Position numbers and translations under genes: made by a program | In this document: one piece after another, positions 13,410 through 31,671 of the stretch | How the letters are laid out: the number at the start of each line of letters is the position of its first letter | Numbering within the stretch: position 1 is the first letter of the stretch | Notes under the pieces: generated by a model | What the model saw: only the letters and a program-made list of their open reading frames with translations | Told to the model about the DNA's origin: nothing | The model's database searches: none | NCBI GenBank assembly: GCA_038064895.1 | Contig: JBBTSA010000010.1 | Coordinates: forward strand, 31,725 to 95,724 | Length of the DNA: 64,000 nt | Source of the DNA: Patescibacteria group bacterium | GTDB lineage: Bacteria; Patescibacteriota; Microgenomatia; Daviesbacterales; UBA10151 | Reading direction: 5' to 3'

Positions 13410-13778
13410 TTACTCTTTGGGATACTTAAATATCTCAATTGAATCTTCCTTAAGAATAGTGAGACTTTTTAGAAGTACGCTCTCAGAATATTTTTCTAAC
13501 ACTTCTTTAAGTTTTAAATAGTGGTGTTCTGCATTCTGCACACTTAACCTTATTACAATCATCCCAACCTGATATTTGGGGAATTTACTCAAGCCCAGGA
13601 AATCTTTGTCATGAGTTAGAATAATCCTATGTTCATCTGAAGCCAATTTAATAATATCCACGTCCGGAATTGTTAGATTCAATTTCTTGATATCAACTAA
13701 GTTGTGCCCAGTCTTACGGAGTAGTTTAATGACTTTTTGGGCGATATTAATATCAGCGACGAATTTCATGAAGTGCAA
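13410..13778 (-). CDS. DUF5615-family PIN-like putative toxin
   Basis: A 122-aa product that overlaps and lies downstream of a DUF433 gene. The sequence FVADINIAQKVIKLLRKTGHNLVDIKKL...IILTHDKDF is typical of DUF5615. Confidence 0.55.
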   Translation of the reverse strand: MHFMKFVADINIAQKVIKLLRKTGHNLVDIKKLNLTIPDVDIIKLASDEHRIILTHDKDFLGLSKFPKYQVGMIVIRLSVQNAEHHYLKLKEVLEKYSESVLLKSLTILKEDSIEIFKYPKE

Positions 13779-14034
13779 CTTGAGGCTTTAAATCTTCAGC
13801 TTTGCTATATGCTTTAGCATTCCCCACTTTTTTAGCAGCGAACTGAATAGCTGCCTTAATTTGTTCTTTAGTAAGAAATGGATATTCTCTCAATATTTCT
13901 TTAATTTCCATACCTCCAGCTAAGAATTCCAAAATTACCTCAATAGACATTCTGGTACCGGCAATAATTGGTTTCCCACCTAAAATTTTAGGATCCTGGG
14001 TGATTAATTTCTTCATGTAAACTAATTTTACCAC
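13753..14034 (-). CDS. DUF433-family putative antitoxin
   Basis: A 93-aa product. PKILGGKPIIAGTRMSIEVILEFLAGGMEIKEILREYPFLTKEQIKAAIQFA is the DUF433 core. It overlaps the DUF5615 gene by 26 nt. Confidence 0.6.
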   Translation of the reverse strand: MVKLVYMKKLITQDPKILGGKPIIAGTRMSIEVILEFLAGGMEIKEILREYPFLTKEQIKAAIQFAAKKVGNAKAYSKAEDLKPQVALHEIRR

Positions 14035-14049
14035 ATACCAGAAAAATTT

Positions 14050-14124
14050 TGGCGGGACCGACGGGAGTTGAACCCGCTATCTACTCCGTGACAAGGAGTC
14101 GTGATGCCGTTTCACTACGGTCCC
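14050..14124 (-). tRNA. tRNA-Asp (anticodon GTC), with CCA encoded
   Basis: Minus-strand sequence GGGACCG-TA-GTGA-AACGGCA-TCAC-G-ACTCC-TTGTCAC-GGAGT-AGATA-GCGGG-TTCAACT-CCCGT-CGGTCCC-G-CCA. The cloverleaf folds by hand and is 75 nt. Confidence 0.85.
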
Positions 14125-14378
14125 AAACTAATGAATCCTTCGTCTATGATTTTCTCAATAATTATTCTACTTTTAAAGTTCTTCAACTTTCTTTCAACTA
14201 TTCTAGCTTCTAGAACTGAACCATATACTTGCTTAAATACTAAGTTATAAGGTCGCGTGAACCGGGTTGATTTAGTCTTCCCATTATTATGCTCAAATAA
14301 TCTTCTCTCTAAATCGTTCGTTGATCCAATGTAATATCTACCATTTACCAAAGATTTAAGTATATATACTATCCCCAT
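14115..14378 (-). CDS. Small GIY-YIG nuclease-domain protein (UPF0213/YhbQ-like). The annotated 106-aa ORF begins inside a tRNA-like sequence; the likely real start is M20 (MGIVYIL...).
   Basis: GIVYILKSLVNGRYYIGSTNDLERRLFEHNNG is the GIY-YIG motif. The C-terminal codons read into the 5' end of tRNA-Asp. Confidence 0.7.
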   Translation of the reverse strand: MGIVYILKSLVNGRYYIGSTNDLERRLFEHNNGKTKSTRFTRPYNLVFKQVYGSVLEARIVERKLKNFKSRIIIEKIIDEGFISLGP

Positions 14379-14387
14379 AAATCCCTT

Positions 14388-14444
14388 GAACCCGCTATCT
14401 GTCCGATGTACATCGGACCGTGATGACCGGTTCACTACGGTCCC
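14388..14444 (-). pseudogene. Truncated tRNA-like copy (5' leader, acceptor arm, D arm, GTA anticodon stem-loop and T-stem start) lacking a 3' half
   Basis: It shares 24 nt (CATTAGTTTGGGACCGTAGTGAA) and AGATAGCGGGTTCAA with tRNA-Asp 320 bp downstream. The anticodon arm is a perfect 18-nt palindrome GTCCGATGTACATCGGAC. No complementary acceptor 3' strand follows. Confidence 0.5.
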
Positions 14445-14477
14445 AAACTAATGCATTGTAACAAAAGTTTTACCCCC

Positions 14478-14506
14478 TTGACAAATTTTTGCGGATAGAC
14501 TAAAAA
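14478..14506 (+). promoter_or_regulatory. Putative sigma70-like promoter for the LysM gene
   Basis: TTGACA, then 17 nt, then TAAAAA, about 40 nt upstream of the ATG at 14545. Confidence 0.25.
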
Positions 14507-14544
14507 GGGATTAGTAAAAACTGCTCCATCTGCCTAAAACTAAA

Positions 14545-15243
14545 ATGGCAAGAGGAAGACCGAGTATTAAAGAACAATTCCCAATCAATAATTATTTGGA
14601 GAAAATGTCATATGATGTAAAATCCACCCAATCCAAAGTAAGTATTGTATTGGGAGCTTTGATTATTTTGGTTTTAGGAATTTTGGTTTTTAACTACTTT
14701 AGAGGAGGAAAGGAAACTTTAGGTCCTGCACAACAAACAGAAACAACGGCGGATGATGTTTCTCCTGAAAACTTACCAGGAAAATATACTGTTAAAGAGG
14801 GCGATACATTGTTTTTGATCGCCGAGAAATATTACAAGGATGGATTCAAATATCCGGAAATAGCAAAAGCAAATAATCTTACCAATGTTAATGCAATAGA
14901 GAAAGGTCAGGTACTAGAAATACCCAAATTAACACAAGAAGTTGCAGAAATTCCGTCGGCTCCGTCGCCATCCCTCTCACCTCTACCTTCTCCCTCTCCA
15001 CTATCAAGTGATCCAGTTCAACCTCAAGTCACTAAAGAGCTTGGAAAGGGTGGTGGTGATACAACAATCTGGGGATCAAAGATTGAAGGAGACACATACA
15101 CTGTTGTTGAAGGAGACTGGCTTTCCAAAATTGCAGCCAGAGCATACGGAGATATATTTGCTTACAAAAAACTGGCTGATGCAAATAATATCTCAAATCC
15201 TGACTTAATTTTTCCAGGACAAGTAATAAAAATCCCCAGATAA
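14545..15243 (+). CDS. Membrane-anchored protein with two LysM peptidoglycan-binding domains separated by a Pro/Ser linker
   Basis: N-terminal TM helix. YTVKEGDTLFLIAEKYY...NAIEKGQVLEIP and YTVVEGDWLSKIAARAYGD...PGQVIKIP are two canonical LysM motifs. Confidence 0.8.
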   Translation: MARGRPSIKEQFPINNYLEKMSYDVKSTQSKVSIVLGALIILVLGILVFNYFRGGKETLGPAQQTETTADDVSPENLPGKYTVKEGDTLFLIAEKYYKDGFKYPEIAKANNLTNVNAIEKGQVLEIPKLTQEVAEIPSAPSPSLSPLPSPSPLSSDPVQPQVTKELGKGGGDTTIWGSKIEGDTYTVVEGDWLSKIAARAYGDIFAYKKLADANNISNPDLIFPGQVIKIPR

Positions 15244-15294
15244 TTTCCTGAGTTGACAACTATACCCTAAACCCTTTACCCTAAATCCTACCAT

Positions 15295-15933
15295 ATGACT
15301 AGGGAAAAAAAGGTAAAGGAAATTATTAGACGCTTATACAAAGTATATCCTCAGCCAAAAATCGCGCTTCGCTTTCAAAATCCCTACCAACTACTGATCG
15401 CAACAATACTTTCTGCACAAGCCACAGATGTTTCCGTCAATCTCGCTACTCCTGGTCTTTTTACAAAATATCCAAAGCCAGAGGATTTGGCTAAAGCAGA
15501 AGTCTCAACAATCGATCAACTCATAAAAAATATTAATTTCCATCAAAATAAGGCAAAAATGATAAAATCTGCAACTCAAATGTTGGTGGATAAATTCCAA
15601 AGTAAAGTTCCAGATAATATGCAGGATTTAGACTCCCTTCCAGGAGTTGCCAGAAAAACTGCCAATGTAATTTTAGGTTCAGCTTTTGGAAAGGCTGAAG
15701 GAATTGTTGTTGATACTCATGTAATAAGGCTTACAAATAAACTAGGCCTAACAGAAAGTAAAGATCCGGTAAAAATAGAAAAAGATTTAATGGAAATCGT
15801 GCCCAAAAAATACTGGATTGACTTTCCCCTTCTATTGATACTCCACGGCCGTCATTTCTGCACGGCCAGAACTCATTCATGCCTAAATTGCCCTCTGGGA
15901 AATCTCTGCCCTGATTTTAAAAATGACCCATGA
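15295..15933 (+). CDS. nth: Endonuclease III (DNA glycosylase/AP lyase)
   Basis: HhH-GPD motif LPGVARKTANVIL. [4Fe-4S] cluster loop C-x6-C-x2-C-x5-C (CTARTHSCLNCPLGNLC). Confidence 0.85.
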   Translation: MTREKKVKEIIRRLYKVYPQPKIALRFQNPYQLLIATILSAQATDVSVNLATPGLFTKYPKPEDLAKAEVSTIDQLIKNINFHQNKAKMIKSATQMLVDKFQSKVPDNMQDLDSLPGVARKTANVILGSAFGKAEGIVVDTHVIRLTNKLGLTESKDPVKIEKDLMEIVPKKYWIDFPLLLILHGRHFCTARTHSCLNCPLGNLCPDFKNDP

Positions 15934-17549
15934 AAAAATGGTTTAAAGAAAATTTAATTTACTTATTTTTTTTGACCTTCCTGGTCGTAGTTGCTTACGC
16001 TAATTCCTTAAACAATGTTTTTTTATCCGATGATCTTGCAGAAATAGTTCAAAATCCAAATGTAGGAGATTTAGCTCATGGTATTTCCACTTATCCTTTC
16101 GGTTTTATTCGTCCACTTTTATATTGGGTAGCTTATCAATTGGGCGGTTTAAATCCCTCTTTTTTTAGGTTCATAAATATTTTTTTTCATACTGGATCTG
16201 TATTTTTAATTTTTGCCATACTTAATCAGTTACAATCAAAAAAGTCGGCACTTTTTGTTGCTGCTGTCTTTGCTGTTCATCCGGCAATTTCGGAAGCGGT
16301 AGTCTGGATTTCCGGGGGCAGTTATCCTCAATACTCTTTCTTTCTCCTATTATCTTTTCTGTTCTACATTTTATCCTCAAGACGCAAGTTTTTCTATCTT
16401 CTATCCTCAATTTTCTATCTTCTATCTCTAATGTCTCACCCTGTTATGCCTCTTGGTCTTTTTTTAGTATTTCCTGCCTTTGAGCTTACATTTGGAAACT
16501 TAAGGAAAAATTGGTTAAAAGCTATTCCATTTCTTCTAATCAGCATAGTATATGTCTTTATTAACCTTGCCGCCATACCGGAGAGAACTACCACTTTACA
16601 ATCGACTCATTATCAGGAAAAAGGGGTTGACAATTTATTTCTTATAATTCCGATAGCTATTTCCTCTTATTTTGAACTTATCTTTTGGCCAGAGACATTA
16701 ACTCTTTATCATTCCGAACTTAGCTTTGGTCCAATTAACTTTGCAGTTAGATCAATAAGTACTCTTTTATTTTTTGTTGCCATTGCAATAACTTTTGTAA
16801 AAAATAGGAAAATTTGCTTCTGGTTGTCTTTTTCCCTAATTGCACTTTCTCCCACCTTAACTCCTTTTAGATTTAATTGGATTGTTGCTGAAAGATATTT
16901 GTATTTGCCAATTTTGGGGATTTTAACAGCTGTAGCAATTTTGGCAGAAAATTATCTAAAGTTTTTACGCTCCAAACTCCTAATCTATACTTTTTTTATA
17001 CTTATTATTGCGGCTTTATCAATCAGAACTTTTGTGAGAAATATAGATTGGAAAAATGAGGATAATCTTTGGATTGCAACAGGAAAAACTTCACCCTCCA
17101 GTCCAAACACCCATAATAATTTAGGGGATGTCTATGGAAGATGGGGGAATAAACAAAGGGCTTTGCAGGAATTTCAAACTGCCATTGCTTTAAAACCAAA
17201 CTACGGGGACGCTCACCATAACCTGGCAAATACATACAGGGAGTTGGGACAGTTGGATAAAGCACTGGAAAATTATCAAAAAGCAGCTTCTTTTAATCCT
17301 AATCTTTGGCAATCATATCAAAATATTGCTGCCCTATATTTTGAAGCAAAGGAGTATGATAAAGCCCTAGAAAATATTCAAAAAGCCATTCAAATTAATC
17401 CTAAAAATCTAAATCTTTACAATAATTTAGGGATAGTTTATCTATTTTCAGGACAAAAAGATAAAGCAAAAGAGGTATTTAATCTGGTTTTATCTTCCGA
17501 TCCAAAGAATCAATTTGCAAGCCAGGGGCTTTTGGAAGCAAGTAAATAG
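15930..17549 (+). CDS. Polytopic membrane protein (PMT/GT39-like N-terminal region) with a C-terminal TPR repeat domain
   Basis: About 11 predicted TM helices followed by at least 4 TPR units (NLGDVYGRWGNKQRALQEFQTAIALKPNY..., AHHNLANTYRELGQLDKALENYQKA...). Confidence 0.65.
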   Translation: MKKWFKENLIYLFFLTFLVVVAYANSLNNVFLSDDLAEIVQNPNVGDLAHGISTYPFGFIRPLLYWVAYQLGGLNPSFFRFINIFFHTGSVFLIFAILNQLQSKKSALFVAAVFAVHPAISEAVVWISGGSYPQYSFFLLLSFLFYILSSRRKFFYLLSSIFYLLSLMSHPVMPLGLFLVFPAFELTFGNLRKNWLKAIPFLLISIVYVFINLAAIPERTTTLQSTHYQEKGVDNLFLIIPIAISSYFELIFWPETLTLYHSELSFGPINFAVRSISTLLFFVAIAITFVKNRKICFWLSFSLIALSPTLTPFRFNWIVAERYLYLPILGILTAVAILAENYLKFLRSKLLIYTFFILIIAALSIRTFVRNIDWKNEDNLWIATGKTSPSSPNTHNNLGDVYGRWGNKQRALQEFQTAIALKPNYGDAHHNLANTYRELGQLDKALENYQKAASFNPNLWQSYQNIAALYFEAKEYDKALENIQKAIQINPKNLNLYNNLGIVYLFSGQKDKAKEVFNLVLSSDPKNQFASQGLLEASK

Positions 17550-31576: not shown

Positions 31577-31599
31577 CCATAAATTGTACCAAATTTTTG

Positions 31600-31671
31600 T
31601 GGAGTCGACAGGGTTTGAACCTGTGACCTCCCCGATGTGAACGGGGCGCTCTACCGCTGAGCTACGACTCC
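31600..31671 (-). tRNA. tRNA-Val (anticodon CAC)
   Basis: GGAGTCG-TA-GCTC-AGCGGTA-GAGC-G-CCCCG-TTCACAT-CGGGG-AGGTC-ACAGG-TTCAAAC-CCTGT-CGACTCC-A. 72 nt. Confidence 0.85.

What the first reader, a model, noticed from the sequence alone, without database searches (positions are those of the whole stretch)
14050..14444. GIY-YIG nuclease ORF wedged between a truncated tRNA-like copy and an intact tRNA-Asp sharing leader and acceptor sequences
On the minus strand the order is a partial tRNA (14444-14388), a GIY-YIG ORF (14378-14115) and a complete tRNA-Asp(GTC) (14124-14050). The partial copy has leader, acceptor 5' strand, D arm, a GTA anticodon stem-loop that is a perfect 18-nt palindrome, a variable loop and the T-stem 5' strand, then diverges exactly at the T-loop. 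It shares a 24-nt identical leader-plus-5'-end and a 15-nt variable/T-stem block with tRNA-Asp. The GIY-YIG ORF's annotated start lies inside the fragment and its last codons read into tRNA-Asp. This looks like a footprint of nuclease-associated tRNA gene disruption or duplication, or tRNA-targeted insertion, rather than chance. The 260-nt insert is too short for a group I intron.
Basis: seen in the sequence. Interest (0 to 1): 0.55.

Follow-up and report, generated by a model that had tools for sequence, protein, structure and literature searches.

The report
GIY-YIG gene wedged against tRNA-Asp
A tiny nuclease gene sits between a broken copy and the working copy of a tRNA-Asp gene, and the same layout, marked by one conserved 18-base palindrome, recurs beside many tRNA genes across the ultra-small Patescibacteria, which points to an apparently undescribed tRNA-associated selfish DNA module.

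Summary
On the minus strand a strong promoter is followed by a truncated tRNA-Asp copy (positions 1-58), an 87-aa GIY-YIG ORF and an intact tRNA-Asp(GTC). The ORF's TAG stop is tRNA positions 8-10.

The fragment is not a tRNA-Tyr. Its "GTA anticodon arm" is a conserved palindrome, GTCCGATG-NN-CATCGGAC, whose two central bases vary.

The layout recurs. Among 86 distinct family proteins, 74 abut a same-strand tRNA, and 51 of the 75 abutting tRNAs have GNC anticodons. About 70% have the palindrome nearby on a truncated tRNA copy.

Three relatives with orthologous flanks have the same promoter running straight into tRNA-Asp, with no fragment and no upstream ORF. One relative (L004) is a recombinant with its breakpoint at the ORF/tRNA junction.

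The protein is a UPF0213/Slx1-type minimal nuclease with its conserved catalytic-motif residues intact.

Best reading: a selfish, tRNA-parasitising nuclease cassette that spreads and rearranges by recombination through tRNA homology. The palindrome is its hallmark cis element. How it moves is inferred, not shown, and ORF-less palindrome/tRNA tandems are about as common. I found no description of it in the searchable literature.

The parts
14455..14484 (-). Sigma-70-type promoter TTGTCA-18 nt-TACAAT with a TG extension. It drives fragment, ORF and tRNA-Asp as one transcript (co-transcription is inferred).
   Evidence: It matches 10 of 12 consensus positions and is the best site in the region. 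The same promoter lies directly upstream of tRNA-Asp in the empty-site relatives L214, L216 and L217, and upstream of the fragment in L004.
14386..14444 (-). Truncated pseudo-tRNA-Asp covering positions 1-58. The acceptor 5' strand, D arm, variable loop, T-stem 5' strand and first 5 nt of the T-loop are kept. The anticodon arm is replaced by the palindrome.
   Evidence: Read from the sequence and supported by the repeats. Neither ARAGORN nor Infernal calls it a tRNA. Its D-loop variant AACCGGTCA is shared with the L004 fragment but not with the adjacent intact tRNA.
14401..14418 (.). Hallmark palindrome GTCCGATG-TA-CATCGGAC: 8-bp arms around a 2-nt variable centre. It resembles a tRNA-Val(GAC)-type anticodon arm with one extra base.
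   Evidence: The pattern occurs in at least 119 stretches of GTDB species genomes, mostly Patescibacteria. The centre is 2 nt in 72, 3 nt in 13 and 1 nt in 1 of the matched sites. Arm positions 1, 2 and 7 covary. The 17-nt version is the anticodon arm of an intact tRNA-Val(GAC) in L193.
14431..14453 (-). Direct repeat 1, upstream copy (9 nt of leader plus tRNA positions 1-14). Its partner is 14111-14133.
   Evidence: 23 of 23 positions are identical. Because it includes lineage-specific leader, host sequence was duplicated or converted in place. Compare the leader gcatgagctt in L217.
14111..14133 (-). Direct repeat 1, downstream copy. It encodes the last residues of the ORF (ISLGP*) and forms the 5' end of the intact tRNA-Asp.
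14382..14387 (-). Shine-Dalgarno-like AAGGGA, ending 3 nt before the ATG.
   Evidence: Read from the sequence. Purine-rich motifs occupy the same place in L003-L005. This is an inference.
14115..14378 (-). 87-aa stand-alone GIY-YIG nuclease gene of the UPF0213/Slx1-like class. The coordinates include the TAG stop, which is tRNA-Asp positions 8-10.
   Evidence: Pfam PF01541 at E 1.3e-14. The closest solved structure is 1zg2 (UPF0213 BH0048) at E 4e-15. The AlphaFold2 model has pLDDT 90.9, and its top Foldseek hits are 1zg2 and then Slx1. The family-invariant residues Y5, Y16, G18, R26, H30 and E62 are all present.
14050..14124 (-). Intact tRNA-Asp(GTC) with an encoded CCA end. It is the functional partner gene.
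   Evidence: ARAGORN and Rfam RF00005 at 62.2 bits. It closely resembles the tRNA-Asp of the empty-site relative L214.

Best explanation
This locus belongs to a widespread family of tRNA-parasitising GIY-YIG cassettes in Patescibacteria, which I did not find described in the searchable literature.

**What the cassette is.** A minimal (about 87 aa) UPF0213/Slx1-type nuclease gene is packed with no spacer against a tRNA gene. In this locus it lies between the tRNA's own promoter and the tRNA. It is therefore expressed as part of the tRNA precursor and borrows U8-A9-G10 of the tRNA as its stop codon.

**The pseudo-copy.** On its other side lies a truncated pseudo-copy of the same tRNA. Its anticodon arm is replaced by the family's hallmark palindrome, GTCCGATG-NN-CATCGGAC, which looks like a Val-GAC-type anticodon arm with one extra base.

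**Proposed mechanism.** The cassette is gained, lost and reshuffled by recombination through the tRNA-derived repeats. This resembles homing of a free-standing endonuclease gene, with the tRNA sequences acting as homology arms. The nuclease is proposed to start these events by cutting or nicking palindromic, hairpin- or cruciform-forming tRNA anticodon-arm DNA.

**Role of the palindrome.** The non-homologous palindrome and the truncation keep the pseudo-copy from recombining the cassette away and from competing as a tRNA.

**Shown:** the anatomy, its recurrence, presence/absence among relatives, one recombinant, and intact conserved catalytic-motif residues.

**Inferred:** nuclease activity, its target, co-transcription, and the direction of events (gain versus loss).
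For: **Same architecture in relatives.** L003, L004 and L005 carry GIY-YIG proteins 70-83% identical to this one. Their palindrome is conserved, while the tRNA-like flanks follow the local tRNA-Asp.

**One protein family.** The palindrome-associated ORFs from different Patescibacteria lineages are 34-61% identical to one another outside this locus's own clade.

**Tight packing against tRNAs.**
- 74 of 86 distinct family proteins abut a same-strand tRNA.
- When the tRNA is downstream, the stop is TAG at tRNA position 8 or 9 in 44 of 56 cases.
- When the tRNA is upstream, the ATG lies within -1 to +5 nt of the tRNA 3' end in 15 of 19 cases.
- 51 of 75 partner tRNAs have GNC anticodons, whose arms are intrinsically palindromic, against roughly 10% assumed for a whole tRNA gene set.

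**Palindrome association.** A palindrome-like hairpin lies within 250 nt of 61 of 86 ORFs.

**Empty sites.** L214, L216 and L217 have LysM orthologues 66-72% identical to this window's. They have the same promoter and a similar leader running directly into tRNA-Asp, with no fragment, no palindrome and no family ORF upstream.

**Recombinant.** L004 is mostly window-like (about three quarters of informative sites) through promoter, fragment and ORF up to roughly the last 10 codons. It then shows 25 consecutive L003-like informative sites through the tRNA and beyond.

**Partner switching.** The protein tree groups by partner tRNA but shows switches (Val to Asp, Ile, Thr; Ala to Gly) and changes of ORF/tRNA order.

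**Nuclease likely active.** The family-invariant Y, Y, R, H and E residues are present here. The fold is closest to UPF0213 and to Slx1, a structure-specific nuclease.

**The palindrome behaves as a selected hairpin or symmetric site.** Arm positions covary. The centre is nearly always 2 nt but of any sequence.

**Not phage-borne.** There is no tblastn match in 50,697 phage records, and only 2 IMG/VR contigs contain the palindrome.
Against: - No cleavage site or activity is known, and the protein has no DNA-binding domain beyond a short C-terminal helix.
- The anticodon arm of the intact tRNA-Asp is identical in an occupied locus (L005, TCTCC/GGAGA) and an empty one (L214). A simple sensitive-versus-resistant allele difference in that arm is therefore not seen.
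- An intact tRNA-Val carrying the 17-nt palindrome sits right beside a family ORF in L193. This argues against that arm being a lethal target.
- About half of the palindrome/tRNA tandems have no ORF at all (14 of 27).
- The palindrome also occurs at the tips of terminator-like hairpins far from any tRNA. It therefore has a life of its own that homing through tRNA homology does not explain.
- Presence/absence cannot separate gain from precise loss through the direct repeats.
- The protein-based sample was drawn with one peptide pattern, kept only the 80 best of 241 matches, and contains related sequences. The counts are therefore not independent events.
Confidence: 0.55

Rival explanations
1. 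The palindrome is the mobile unit's cis site. A dimer of the small GIY-YIG nuclease recognises the two 8-bp arms and cuts across the 2-nt centre, leaving the 2-nt 3' overhang typical of GIY-YIG enzymes. Segments bounded by two palindromes (ORF plus or minus tRNA) are excised and re-inserted at other palindromes by host ligation or repair. ORF-less palindrome/tRNA tandems and solitary palindromes are non-autonomous copies served in trans, as in a REP/RAYT-like or MITE-like system driven by a nuclease alone.
For: - Pairs of palindromes in direct order flank ORF plus tRNA in L041, L050, L110, L121, L133 and L161. Neighbouring pairs share the same centre in 11 of 19 cases, against 16% expected.
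- The centre length is fixed at 2 nt in 72 of 86 small-centre sites, with any sequence.
- ORF-less forms are as common as ORF-bearing ones.
- Some hairpins are nested exactly at the centre of others (L152, L195, L206).
- Palindromes sit at the tips of variable terminator-like hairpins and inside other palindromic repeats in many Patescibacteria genomes, with several per genome.
- In low-GC loci only 37% of sites lie inside ORFs, against 87% of random positions.
- Outer split tRNA halves whose acceptor strands pair with each other enclose the inner tRNA, with or without the ORF (L043, L193, L119).
Against: - The window has only one palindrome, so this copy could not be excised that way.
- About half of the flanking pairs have different centres.
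- The sequence next to the palindrome on the inner side is also tRNA-like and matches the local tRNA. A simple cut-and-paste at the centre does not predict this.
- GIY-YIG enzymes are hydrolytic nucleases and none is known to act as a transposase (established knowledge).
- No circle junctions or excision products were examined.
Confidence: 0.22
2. The module is a host-kept expression or RNA-level device rather than a selfish element. The pseudo-tRNA leader with its stable hairpin would stabilise, process or regulate the tRNA precursor or the nuclease mRNA. It could, for example, be an operator or RNA site bound by the protein, as I-TevI represses its own gene through a homing-site-like operator. 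The GIY-YIG protein would be a domesticated tRNA-linked or repair factor.
For: - The fragment lies between the promoter and the ORF, so it would form the 5' end of the transcript.
- As RNA it folds more stably than shuffled sequence (-24.9 kcal/mol, z = -3.1).
- Covariation keeps the hairpin paired.
- [5' partial + palindrome]-[tRNA-Arg CCG] tandems without an ORF are conserved in two different genomes (L017, L090).
- Prokaryotic Slx1-like domains occur fused to a TrmH-like tRNA methyltransferase domain, which has been read as a hint of RNA metabolism (PMC1564403).
Against: - Close relatives do without it: the empty sites L214, L216 and L217 use the same promoter.
- The palindrome's centre occurs equally often as TC and as its complement GA relative to the tRNA strand. 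This argues against a strand-specific RNA loop.
- Pseudo-copies are truncated at variable points.
- The partner tRNA and the gene order switch within protein clades.
- A recombinant breakpoint lies at the junction.
Confidence: 0.13
3. The fragment is the 5' part of a real second tRNA (a tRNA-Tyr(GUA), or a quadruplet decoder with an 8-nt loop). It would be completed either by removing the ORF plus the tRNA-Asp 5' part as an intervening sequence, or by pairing in trans with the shared tRNA-Asp 3' end.
For: - By construction, the fragment's acceptor and T-stem 5' strands are identical to those of tRNA-Asp, so they could pair with its 3' part.
- ARAGORN calls a few complete palindrome-bearing tRNAs with 4-base anticodons elsewhere (L086, L154/L155, L203).
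Against: - The arm is 18 nt and the would-be anticodon varies freely.
- The variable region is short, unlike the long variable arm of bacterial tRNA-Tyr (established knowledge).
- In L004 the fragment's acceptor strand (GGGGCCG) and T-stem cannot pair with the adjacent tRNA-Asp 3' strand (CGAGCCC).
- There is no group I intron core.
- Nearly all palindrome copies are truncated at variable points.
- The host is bacterial, and bacteria are not known to have the archaeal tRNA-splicing endonuclease (established knowledge).
Confidence: 0.02
4. An accidental local tandem duplication of the tRNA-Asp 5' region decayed by chance, and an unrelated small ORF happens to lie in between.
For: Tandem duplication and decay of tRNA genes does occur, and the window alone cannot exclude it.
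Against: - The same three-part architecture, with the same 18-nt palindrome, recurs next to at least 12 different tRNA species in many lineages.
- The palindrome core is absent from 100 shuffles of the window.
- Arm positions covary.
Confidence: 0.01

Closest known systems
Phage T4 SegB and other free-standing GIY-YIG homing endonuclease genes (PMC2330249; PMC13096335)
   Same: It is a GIY-YIG nuclease gene lying free between tRNA genes rather than inside an intron. SegB is inherited together with flanking tRNA markers after a double-strand break, and SegB-driven segmental amplification of tRNA loci has been reported. Here the parallels are presence/absence among relatives, a recombination breakpoint at the ORF/tRNA junction, and tandem partial tRNA copies.
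   Different: Seg-type enzymes carry an added DNA-binding region, whereas this protein is the bare 87-aa catalytic domain of the UPF0213/Slx1 class. This cassette is cellular rather than phage-borne. It overlaps the tRNA, using positions 8-10 as its stop. It comes with a conserved palindrome on a pseudo-tRNA, which has no counterpart in the Seg systems. Cleavage is untested.
UPF0213 stand-alone GIY-YIG proteins (B. halodurans BH0048, PDB 1zg2; E. faecalis EF2693; the E. coli YhbQ / B. subtilis YazA family) and the eukaryotic Slx1 nuclease domain
   Same: They give the best sequence and fold matches: 1zg2 at E 4e-15 with 36% identity, then the Slx1 nuclease domains at 27-31%. The conserved Y, Y, R, H and E positions are present, and the size is similar.
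   Different: The function of UPF0213 is unknown, and to my knowledge no link to tRNA genes has been reported for it. Slx1 needs Slx4 and has a zinc-finger domain (PMC7017083). The Patescibacteria family has its own C-terminal helix, KSRxIIEKIIxDG.
GIY-YIG ORFs inside non-intron insertion sequences of CPR rRNA genes (PMC11270868)
   Same: It involves the same phylum, the same kind of small nuclease ORF lodged in a stable-RNA gene, and no group I or II intron features. Those insertions often sit at the tops or bases of stem-loops.
   Different: Those ORFs interrupt rRNA genes and are described as sparse. Here the ORF abuts an uninterrupted tRNA and is accompanied by partial tRNA duplicates and the palindrome. 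Whether the proteins belong to the same subfamily was not tested.
Group I introns in Patescibacteria tRNA genes, including tRNA-Asp at position 35/36 (PMC13011429)
   Same: Both involve the same phylum and often the same target genes (tRNA-Asp, and the anticodon-loop region as the affected site).
   Different: There is no intron here. The tRNA-Asp is continuous, there is no RF00028 match, and the roughly 320-nt insert lies upstream of the tRNA. The endonuclease genes in those introns are HNH, LAGLIDADG or PD-(D/E)XK types, not GIY-YIG.
REP elements with RAYT transposases (REPINs) and other small palindromic repeats
   Same: Both involve a short, GC-rich, hairpin-forming repeat scattered in non-coding DNA. 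Copies flank the gene of a small nuclease, and many copies have no gene.
   Different: RAYTs are HUH/Y1 enzymes that form covalent intermediates, whereas this is a hydrolytic GIY-YIG domain. This palindrome is strongly tied to tRNA pseudo-copies, where it exactly replaces positions 27-43. This window has a single copy.
Integrase-mediated genomic islands and prophages that target tRNA genes
   Same: Both are associated with a tRNA gene and leave a partial direct duplication of it beside an intact copy.
   Different: Those elements duplicate the tRNA 3' part, are kilobases long and encode an integrase. Here the 5' part is duplicated, the insert is about 320 nt, the only gene is a nuclease, and the duplicated copy has a foreign anticodon arm.

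Membership tests
GIY-YIG nuclease superfamily (Pfam PF01541) | Sequence match above the curated threshold, with the GIY and YIG beta-strand motifs | tested here: met
   54.7 bits against a cut-off of 22.6, E 1.3e-14. The motifs read VYIL...YYIG.
GIY-YIG nuclease superfamily (Pfam PF01541) | Conserved catalytic Tyr, Tyr, Arg, His and metal-binding Glu | tested here: met
   Y5, Y16, R26, H30 and E62 are invariant across the family alignments and present in the window protein. Assigning them to catalysis rests on established I-TevI/UvrC work.
GIY-YIG nuclease superfamily (Pfam PF01541) | Nuclease activity | not testable with these tools
   Needs biochemistry.
UPF0213 / Slx1-like stand-alone GIY-YIG (URI) class | Closest sequence and fold relatives are UPF0213 proteins and Slx1 nuclease domains; single domain of about 90-100 aa | tested here: met
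   1zg2 at E 4.1e-15 and 1ywl at 1.6e-12, with Slx1 chains next. Foldseek ranks 1zg2 first and then Slx1, ahead of I-TevI and UvrC. The model has pLDDT 90.9.
Free-standing homing endonuclease gene | Nuclease ORF between conserved genes, not within an intron or intein | tested here: met
   The ORF lies between a pseudo-tRNA and an intact tRNA, and there is no intron model hit.
Free-standing homing endonuclease gene | Present in some and absent from other close relatives at the same locus | tested here: met
   It is present in the window, L004 and L005. It is absent upstream of tRNA-Asp at the syntenic sites L214, L216 and L217, which share the same promoter.
Free-standing homing endonuclease gene | Co-conversion or recombination tracts ending near the gene | tested here: met
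   L004 is a mosaic. It is mostly window-like up to the last ~10 codons, then shows 25 consecutive L003-like informative sites. This is a single case.
Free-standing homing endonuclease gene | Site-specific cleavage of the ORF-less allele, with a resistant site in the ORF-bearing allele | tested here: inconclusive
   Cleavage is not testable here. No consistent allele difference was seen in the intact tRNA's anticodon arm (L005 and L214 are identical).
Free-standing homing endonuclease gene | Catalytic domain joined to a DNA-binding domain, as in I-TevI and the Seg proteins | tested here: not met
   The protein is 87 aa and consists of the catalytic domain plus one short helix.
Group I intron in a tRNA gene | Intron interrupts the tRNA (usually in the anticodon loop) and has the conserved ribozyme core | tested here: not met
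   tRNA-Asp is continuous. No RF00028 hit appears even at E up to 10.
Split or intron-containing tRNA assembled from halves | The 5' and 3' parts pair to give a canonical cloverleaf with a 7-nt anticodon loop, and this is conserved in relatives | tested here: not met
   The arm is 18 nt. In L004 the fragment cannot pair with the adjacent 3' half. Truncation points vary.
tRNA-Tyr gene or pseudogene | GUA anticodon in a 7-nt loop, conserved among relatives; long variable arm in bacteria | tested here: not met
   The centre varies (GA in L005; TC, TT, AA and others elsewhere). The variable region is 5 nt and identical to that of tRNA-Asp.
Integrase-type tRNA-targeting island | Integrase gene, and duplication of the tRNA 3' segment as the attachment site | tested here: not met
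   There is no integrase. The insert is about 320 nt and the 5' segment is the part duplicated.
REP/RAYT-like palindromic repeat system | Short palindromic repeat dispersed in the genome, with copies flanking the nuclease gene | tested here: inconclusive
   The window has one copy in 64 kb. Other genomes have several, and some loci have flanking pairs.
REP/RAYT-like palindromic repeat system | HUH/Y1 transposase | tested here: not met
   The associated protein is a GIY-YIG nuclease.

The most novel reading that the evidence does not exclude
The 18-nt palindrome is the recognition and cleavage site of a minimal homodimeric Slx1-like GIY-YIG nuclease. The palindrome and the 87-aa gene together form a new class of nuclease-only mobile element. 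It inactivates a tRNA gene copy by swapping in an expanded, palindromic anticodon arm while keeping or supplying an intact copy. It exists in autonomous (ORF-bearing) and non-autonomous (ORF-less) forms, and it seeds hairpins into terminators and other palindromes across Patescibacteria genomes.
Probability: 0.22. Interest if true: 0.85.

Novelty: new variant of a known kind. Interest (0 to 1): 0.68.

Why it matters
**A function for an orphan family.** If this reading holds, the large UPF0213/Slx1-like family of stand-alone GIY-YIG proteins, whose function is unknown, gains a concrete biological context: selfish cassettes living on tRNA genes.

**An extreme case of gene packing.** The ORF start or stop is supplied by a tRNA gene, and expression is tied to tRNA transcription and processing.

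**A practical marker.** The conserved 18-nt palindrome explains many odd tRNA calls in Patescibacteria genomes, such as pseudo-tRNAs and tRNAs with 4-base anticodons.

**A testable enzyme-site pair.** The work yields a candidate pairing of a small nuclease with a defined 8+2+8 palindrome, which can be tested directly and could be useful as a compact sequence- or structure-specific nuclease.

**Genome biology.** It bears on how very small genomes tolerate mobile DNA in their single-copy stable-RNA genes.

Tried and rejected
**Interpretations tested and rejected**
- Second complete tRNA at 14386-14444. Neither ARAGORN nor Infernal supports one.
- Group I intron or other Rfam family. Only sub-threshold hits were found that look like chance (CRISPR-DR52 at 23 bits against 50, snoRNAs).
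- Complete palindrome-bearing tRNAs as a functional gene class. I replaced the palindrome with a normal arm and ran ARAGORN on 125 genome-scan sites. Only one borderline complete gene appeared. ARAGORN itself calls four 4-base-anticodon tRNAs in all fetched DNA. The class was rejected as a general explanation.
- A 1-nt-overhang fill-in model for the extra central base. It predicts a specific relation between the left and right centres, which is not observed.
- A resistant-allele substitution in the intact tRNA's anticodon arm. None was seen.

**Searches that led nowhere**
- Phage origin. There is no tblastn match in the phage collection, and only 2 IMG/VR contigs carry the palindrome.
- Anti-phage defence. 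PADLOC gives only a weak generic homing-endonuclease model hit.
- Literature. Six searches and five papers read found group I introns in Patescibacteria tRNAs, CPR rRNA insertions, T4 SegB and the GIY-YIG phylogenomics paper, but nothing on this module.

Narrower alignments worked.

**Limits**
- No tRNA-Tyr lies in the 64-kb window, and the rest of the genome was not available, so tRNA-Tyr genes could not be counted.
Full report
**What is in the window**

Read on the minus strand, the region holds, in order:
- a promoter-like site, TTGTCA-18 nt-TACAAT with a TG extension (14484-14455; 10 of 12 matches);
- a 10-nt leader;
- a tRNA-like fragment (14444-14386);
- a Shine-Dalgarno-like AAGGGA;
- an 87-aa ORF (14378-14115);
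- an intact tRNA-Asp(GTC) (14124-14050).

ARAGORN and Infernal both call the tRNA-Asp (62.2 bits). Neither calls a second tRNA, even at E up to 10. The ORF is a GIY-YIG domain (PF01541, E 1.3e-14). Its TAG stop is tRNA positions 8-10.

The fragment shares two exact blocks with the tRNA, in register. The first is 23 nt: 9 nt of leader plus positions 1-14. The second is 15 nt: variable loop to T-loop position 58. Between the two blocks the D-loop differs slightly. The 17-nt anticodon arm is replaced by an 18-nt perfect palindrome, GTCCGATGTACATCGGAC (14401-14418). The identical protein is on record on five contigs from ENA and Logan assemblies of Hainich groundwater samples and is also held by NCBI, labelled Patescibacteria.

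**The fragment is not a tRNA-Tyr remnant**

Three relatives carry GIY-YIG proteins 70-83% identical to this one: L003, L004 and L005 (L005 is a Daviesbacteria MAG). All three show the same order of fragment, ORF and tRNA-Asp. In all of them the palindrome is conserved. L005 has GG instead of GT at the centre, which removes the "GTA".

The acceptor, D and T parts of the fragment follow the local tRNA-Asp in L003 and L005, where the first 26 nt are identical.

Most hits are from many classes of Patescibacteria. By my own estimate, roughly 35-70 matches would be expected by chance in a collection of that size. Hits in high-GC genomes lie inside ORFs (35 of 38), as chance matches would. In low-GC loci only 31 of 84 do, against 87% of random positions.

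In the low-GC loci the palindrome occupies three kinds of site:
- It exactly replaces positions 27-43 of tRNA-like sequences of many identities.
- It forms the tip of longer, terminator-like hairpins.
- It sits inside other palindromic repeats.

**A protein family that lives against tRNA genes**

ORFs next to the palindrome in different Patescibacteria lineages form one family. Outside this locus's own clade they are 34-61% identical to one another. They share the C-terminal motif KSRxIIEKIIxDG.

I then sampled the family by protein alone. The metagenome scan found 241 relatives and kept the best 80. Combining these with the earlier loci gives 86 distinct proteins, of which 74 abut a tRNA on the same strand.
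- When the tRNA is downstream, the ORF's stop is TAG at tRNA position 8 in 40 and at position 9 in 4 of 56 cases.
- When the tRNA is upstream, the ATG lies within -1 to +5 nt of the tRNA 3' end in 15 of 19 cases.
- In the upstream-tRNA loci I read in detail (L019, L043, L061) and in L108, the ORF often ends in the TAG of the TAGAGC D-stem of a 5'-truncated tRNA copy.

Partner tRNAs are mostly Ala-GGC (19), Val-GAC (16), Asp-GTC (13) and Gly-GCC (3). That makes 51 of 75 with GNC anticodons. I assumed about 10% as the background, because these are four of the roughly forty tRNA species in a genome. GNC arms are intrinsically near-palindromic, because U33-G34-N35-C36-A37 is symmetric.

A palindrome-like hairpin lies within 250 nt of 61 of the 86 ORFs.

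The general architecture has three parts. A 5' partial tRNA copy with the palindrome comes first. The ORF and the intact tRNA follow in either order. A 3' partial copy with the palindrome sometimes closes the unit. The window has the first three elements.

**What the palindrome is**

- Among hairpins near family ORFs the centre is 2 nt in 72, 3 nt in 13 and 1 nt in 1. Its sequence is essentially free.
- The arms are conserved. Where they vary (positions 1, 2 and 7) they covary: GC, CG, TA and AT pairs all occur.
- The single 17-nt version, GTCCG-ATGACAT-CGGAC, is the anticodon arm of an intact tRNA-Val(GAC) directly upstream of a family ORF in L193.
- The nearest ordinary arms are those of tRNA-Val(GAC), such as CTTCG-TTGACAT-CGAAG.

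The palindrome therefore looks like a Val-GAC-type anticodon arm with one extra base in the anticodon. That gives an 8-nt loop, or a 6-7-bp stem with a shorter loop.

Relative to the tRNA strand, TC and its complement GA are both common centres. This fits a symmetric DNA site or a hairpin without a loop-specific function better than a strand-specific RNA loop.

Copies bearing the palindrome are almost always truncated. Four complete ones exist, and ARAGORN reads them as tRNAs with 4-base anticodons.

Pseudo-copies often carry further hairpins of related sequence in their D-loops. Some hairpins are nested exactly at the centre of others.

**Relatives without the ORF at the same locus**

I used the neighbouring LysM protein to find orthologous loci. 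Three contigs with LysM proteins 66-72% identical to this window's keep the same divergent promoter (TTGTCA...TACAAT or TAGAAT). These are L214, L216 and L217. A similar leader (for example gcatgagctt in L217, against gcattagttt here) runs directly into tRNA-Asp. They have no fragment, no palindrome, and no family ORF between promoter and tRNA.

L214 has a GIY-YIG gene of a sister subfamily about 95 nt downstream of its tRNA-Asp, which shows that the site attracts such genes.

In the window, the fragment occupies the place of the ancestral tRNA right after the promoter. The working tRNA has been displaced 320 nt downstream. Its D-loop resembles that of L214, whereas the fragment's D-loop variant (AACCGGTCA) is shared with the fragment of L004.

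Because 23-nt and 15-nt direct repeats flank the insert, precise loss is as easy as gain. Presence/absence alone does not give the direction of the event.

**Evidence for recombination at the junction**

I aligned the window, L003, L004 and L005. L004 is mostly window-like (about three quarters of informative sites) through promoter, fragment and ORF up to about the last ten codons. It then shows 25 consecutive L003-like informative sites through the tRNA-Asp and beyond.

In L004 the fragment (acceptor GGGGCCG) cannot pair with the neighbouring tRNA's 3' strand (CGAGCCC). This also rules out any model in which the fragment is completed by the tRNA-Asp 3' half.

The family tree groups largely by partner tRNA, but it shows partner switches and changes of ORF/tRNA order within clades. 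Neighbouring palindromes in one locus share the same centre in 11 of 19 cases, against 16% expected. Some of these pairs are short tandem repeats of the 3' partial unit.

**The protein**

- The closest solved relatives are the UPF0213 proteins BH0048 (1zg2, E 4e-15) and EF2693. Slx1 nuclease domains come next, then the I-TevI catalytic domain.
- An AlphaFold2 model (pLDDT 90.9) gives the same order by Foldseek.
- The family-invariant residues Y5, Y16, G18, R26, H30 and E62 are present here. They correspond to the GIY-YIG catalytic set known from I-TevI and UvrC.
- There is no extra DNA-binding domain.
- NCBIfam gives only a sub-threshold group-I-intron-endonuclease hit, and PADLOC only a weak generic homing-endonuclease hit.

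**Most likely working**

I commit to a selfish, tRNA-parasitising nuclease cassette. The ORF is expressed from the tRNA promoter as part of the tRNA precursor. This is inferred from the single strong promoter, the absence of a terminator and the zero spacing.

RNase P cutting at tRNA position 1 would remove the stop codon from the mRNA. Full-length protein could then come only from unprocessed transcript. This is an inference and would be a built-in brake on expression.

The tRNA-derived repeats act as homology arms for gain, loss and exchange, as the empty sites and the L004 mosaic suggest. By analogy with Slx1 and with homodimeric GIY-YIG enzymes, the nuclease is proposed to act on palindromic or hairpin-forming anticodon-arm DNA. 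This would account for the bias toward GNC tRNAs and for the 8+2+8 geometry of the palindrome.

The heterologous palindrome and the truncation shorten the repeats. They would therefore protect the cassette against deletion and keep the pseudo-copy from acting as a tRNA.

**What does not fit**

- About half of the palindrome/tRNA tandems have no ORF (14 of 27 sites with enough flanking sequence). Examples are L017 and L090 upstream of tRNA-Arg(CCG), and L104 and L119, where an outer tRNA-Ala is split around an inner intact one.
- Solitary palindromes crown terminator-like hairpins.
- The 17-nt arm coexists with a family ORF in L193.
- No sensitive-versus-resistant difference appears in the intact tRNA's arm.

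These points keep alive the rival view that the palindrome is itself the cis site of a nuclease-only mobile element with autonomous and non-autonomous copies. They also leave room, with less support, for an RNA-level or regulatory role.

**Comparison with what is known**

The nearest known system in behaviour is the free-standing GIY-YIG homing endonuclease SegB in the T4 tRNA cluster (PMC2330249). SegB has also been linked to segmental amplification of tRNA loci (PMC13096335).

The nearest in the same phylum are GIY-YIG ORFs in non-intron insertions of CPR rRNA genes (PMC11270868) and group I introns in Patescibacteria tRNA genes (PMC13011429). Neither describes this module.

Six literature searches found nothing on a tRNA-abutting UPF0213-type family or on the palindrome. 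The library is limited to open-access papers and bioRxiv, so prior description elsewhere cannot be excluded.

I rate the finding a new variant of a known kind: a free-standing, homing-endonuclease-like gene with several unusual features. These are a minimal Slx1-like enzyme, overlap with the tRNA, a hallmark palindrome on pseudo-tRNAs, and ORF-less derivatives.

Noticed in passing
window 13410-14016 (minus strand): Directly downstream of tRNA-Asp lies a DUF433 / DUF5615 (PIN-like, Mut7-C) gene pair with overlapping ends, which looks like a toxin-antitoxin pair. The same pair follows tRNA-Asp in L214. In L003 a HicA/HicB pair is inserted before it.
   Followed up: partly
L003 1-3871 compared with window 13410-17549: In L003 the block fragment-ORF-tRNA-Asp-toxin/antitoxin is inverted relative to LysM-Nth-TPR when compared with the window. 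The region has therefore been rearranged around the tRNA locus.
   Followed up: no
L214 2479-2844 (minus strand); L210 811-1068; L005 1352-1639: Other small GIY-YIG genes of sister subfamilies (for example YYFYILKS...KTTAGWRRIHKMLEN) occur in these genomes. One lies about 95 nt downstream of the tRNA-Asp in an otherwise empty site. Another (95 aa) lies about 600 nt from tRNA-Gly(CCC) in L005.
   Followed up: partly
L013, L045, L056, L067, L078, L097, L114, L118, L124 (positions listed): The 18-nt palindrome forms the tip of longer hairpins with variable stems, many followed by T runs and so resembling intrinsic terminators. Several occur per genome: four in one MAG (L045, L073, L099, L118), none with a family ORF found in the stretches fetched.
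   Followed up: partly
L016 1141, L054 3913, L084 7829, L034 6299: The palindrome sits at the centre of another repeat, GTCATTGCGA...GAAGCAATCCCGT, flanked by GA/GAA mismatches. That repeat recurs in several genomes.
   Followed up: no
L027, L043, L168, L173, L174, L185, L188, L193, L206, L209 (sequences): The D-loops of the pseudo-tRNA copies carry inserted GC-rich hairpins of related sequence (YCCGAYG...CRTCGGR, GTCCGC...GCGGAC, TCCGTGCGAAGCCACGGA). They are sometimes nested or have AT-rich inserts at their centres.
   Followed up: partly
L154 475-551, L155 1338-1414, L086 2733-2812, L203 1969-2043: ARAGORN calls complete tRNAs with 4-base anticodons (GAAC, GTCC) that are palindrome-bearing copies. 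In L203 two palindrome-bearing copies stand in tandem directly upstream of tRNA-Val(GAC) (ARAGORN calls the second of them), and the L154/L155 copy does too. Such calls in Patescibacteria annotations may be this element rather than frameshift suppressors.
   Followed up: partly
L029 and L110 (same MAG, at a contig end and a contig start); L041 7600-8000; L150 1179-1400; L181 500-900: The 3' partial unit (D-stem remnant, palindrome, T arm, acceptor 3' strand) occurs in tandem arrays with a spacing of about 74-80 nt, or about 400 nt in some loci. These arrays appear to break assemblies.
   Followed up: no
loci with the tRNA upstream, e.g. L193 1427-1510, L061, L019, L142: When the ORF follows the tRNA, the ATG starts 0-5 nt after, or overlapping, the tRNA 3' end, leaving no room for a ribosome-binding site. 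tRNA 3' processing would then produce a leaderless mRNA.
   Followed up: no
window 14187-14222 (plus strand): There is a weak Rfam match to CRISPR-DR52 inside the GIY-YIG ORF (23.4 bits against a gathering score of 50, E 0.25). It is most likely chance.
   Followed up: no
window 31599-31671: The window's tRNA-Val(CAC) has the anticodon arm CCCCG-TTCACAT-CGGGG. This resembles the CCCCGATG...CATCGGGG variant of the palindrome seen in L198 and L203.
   Followed up: no
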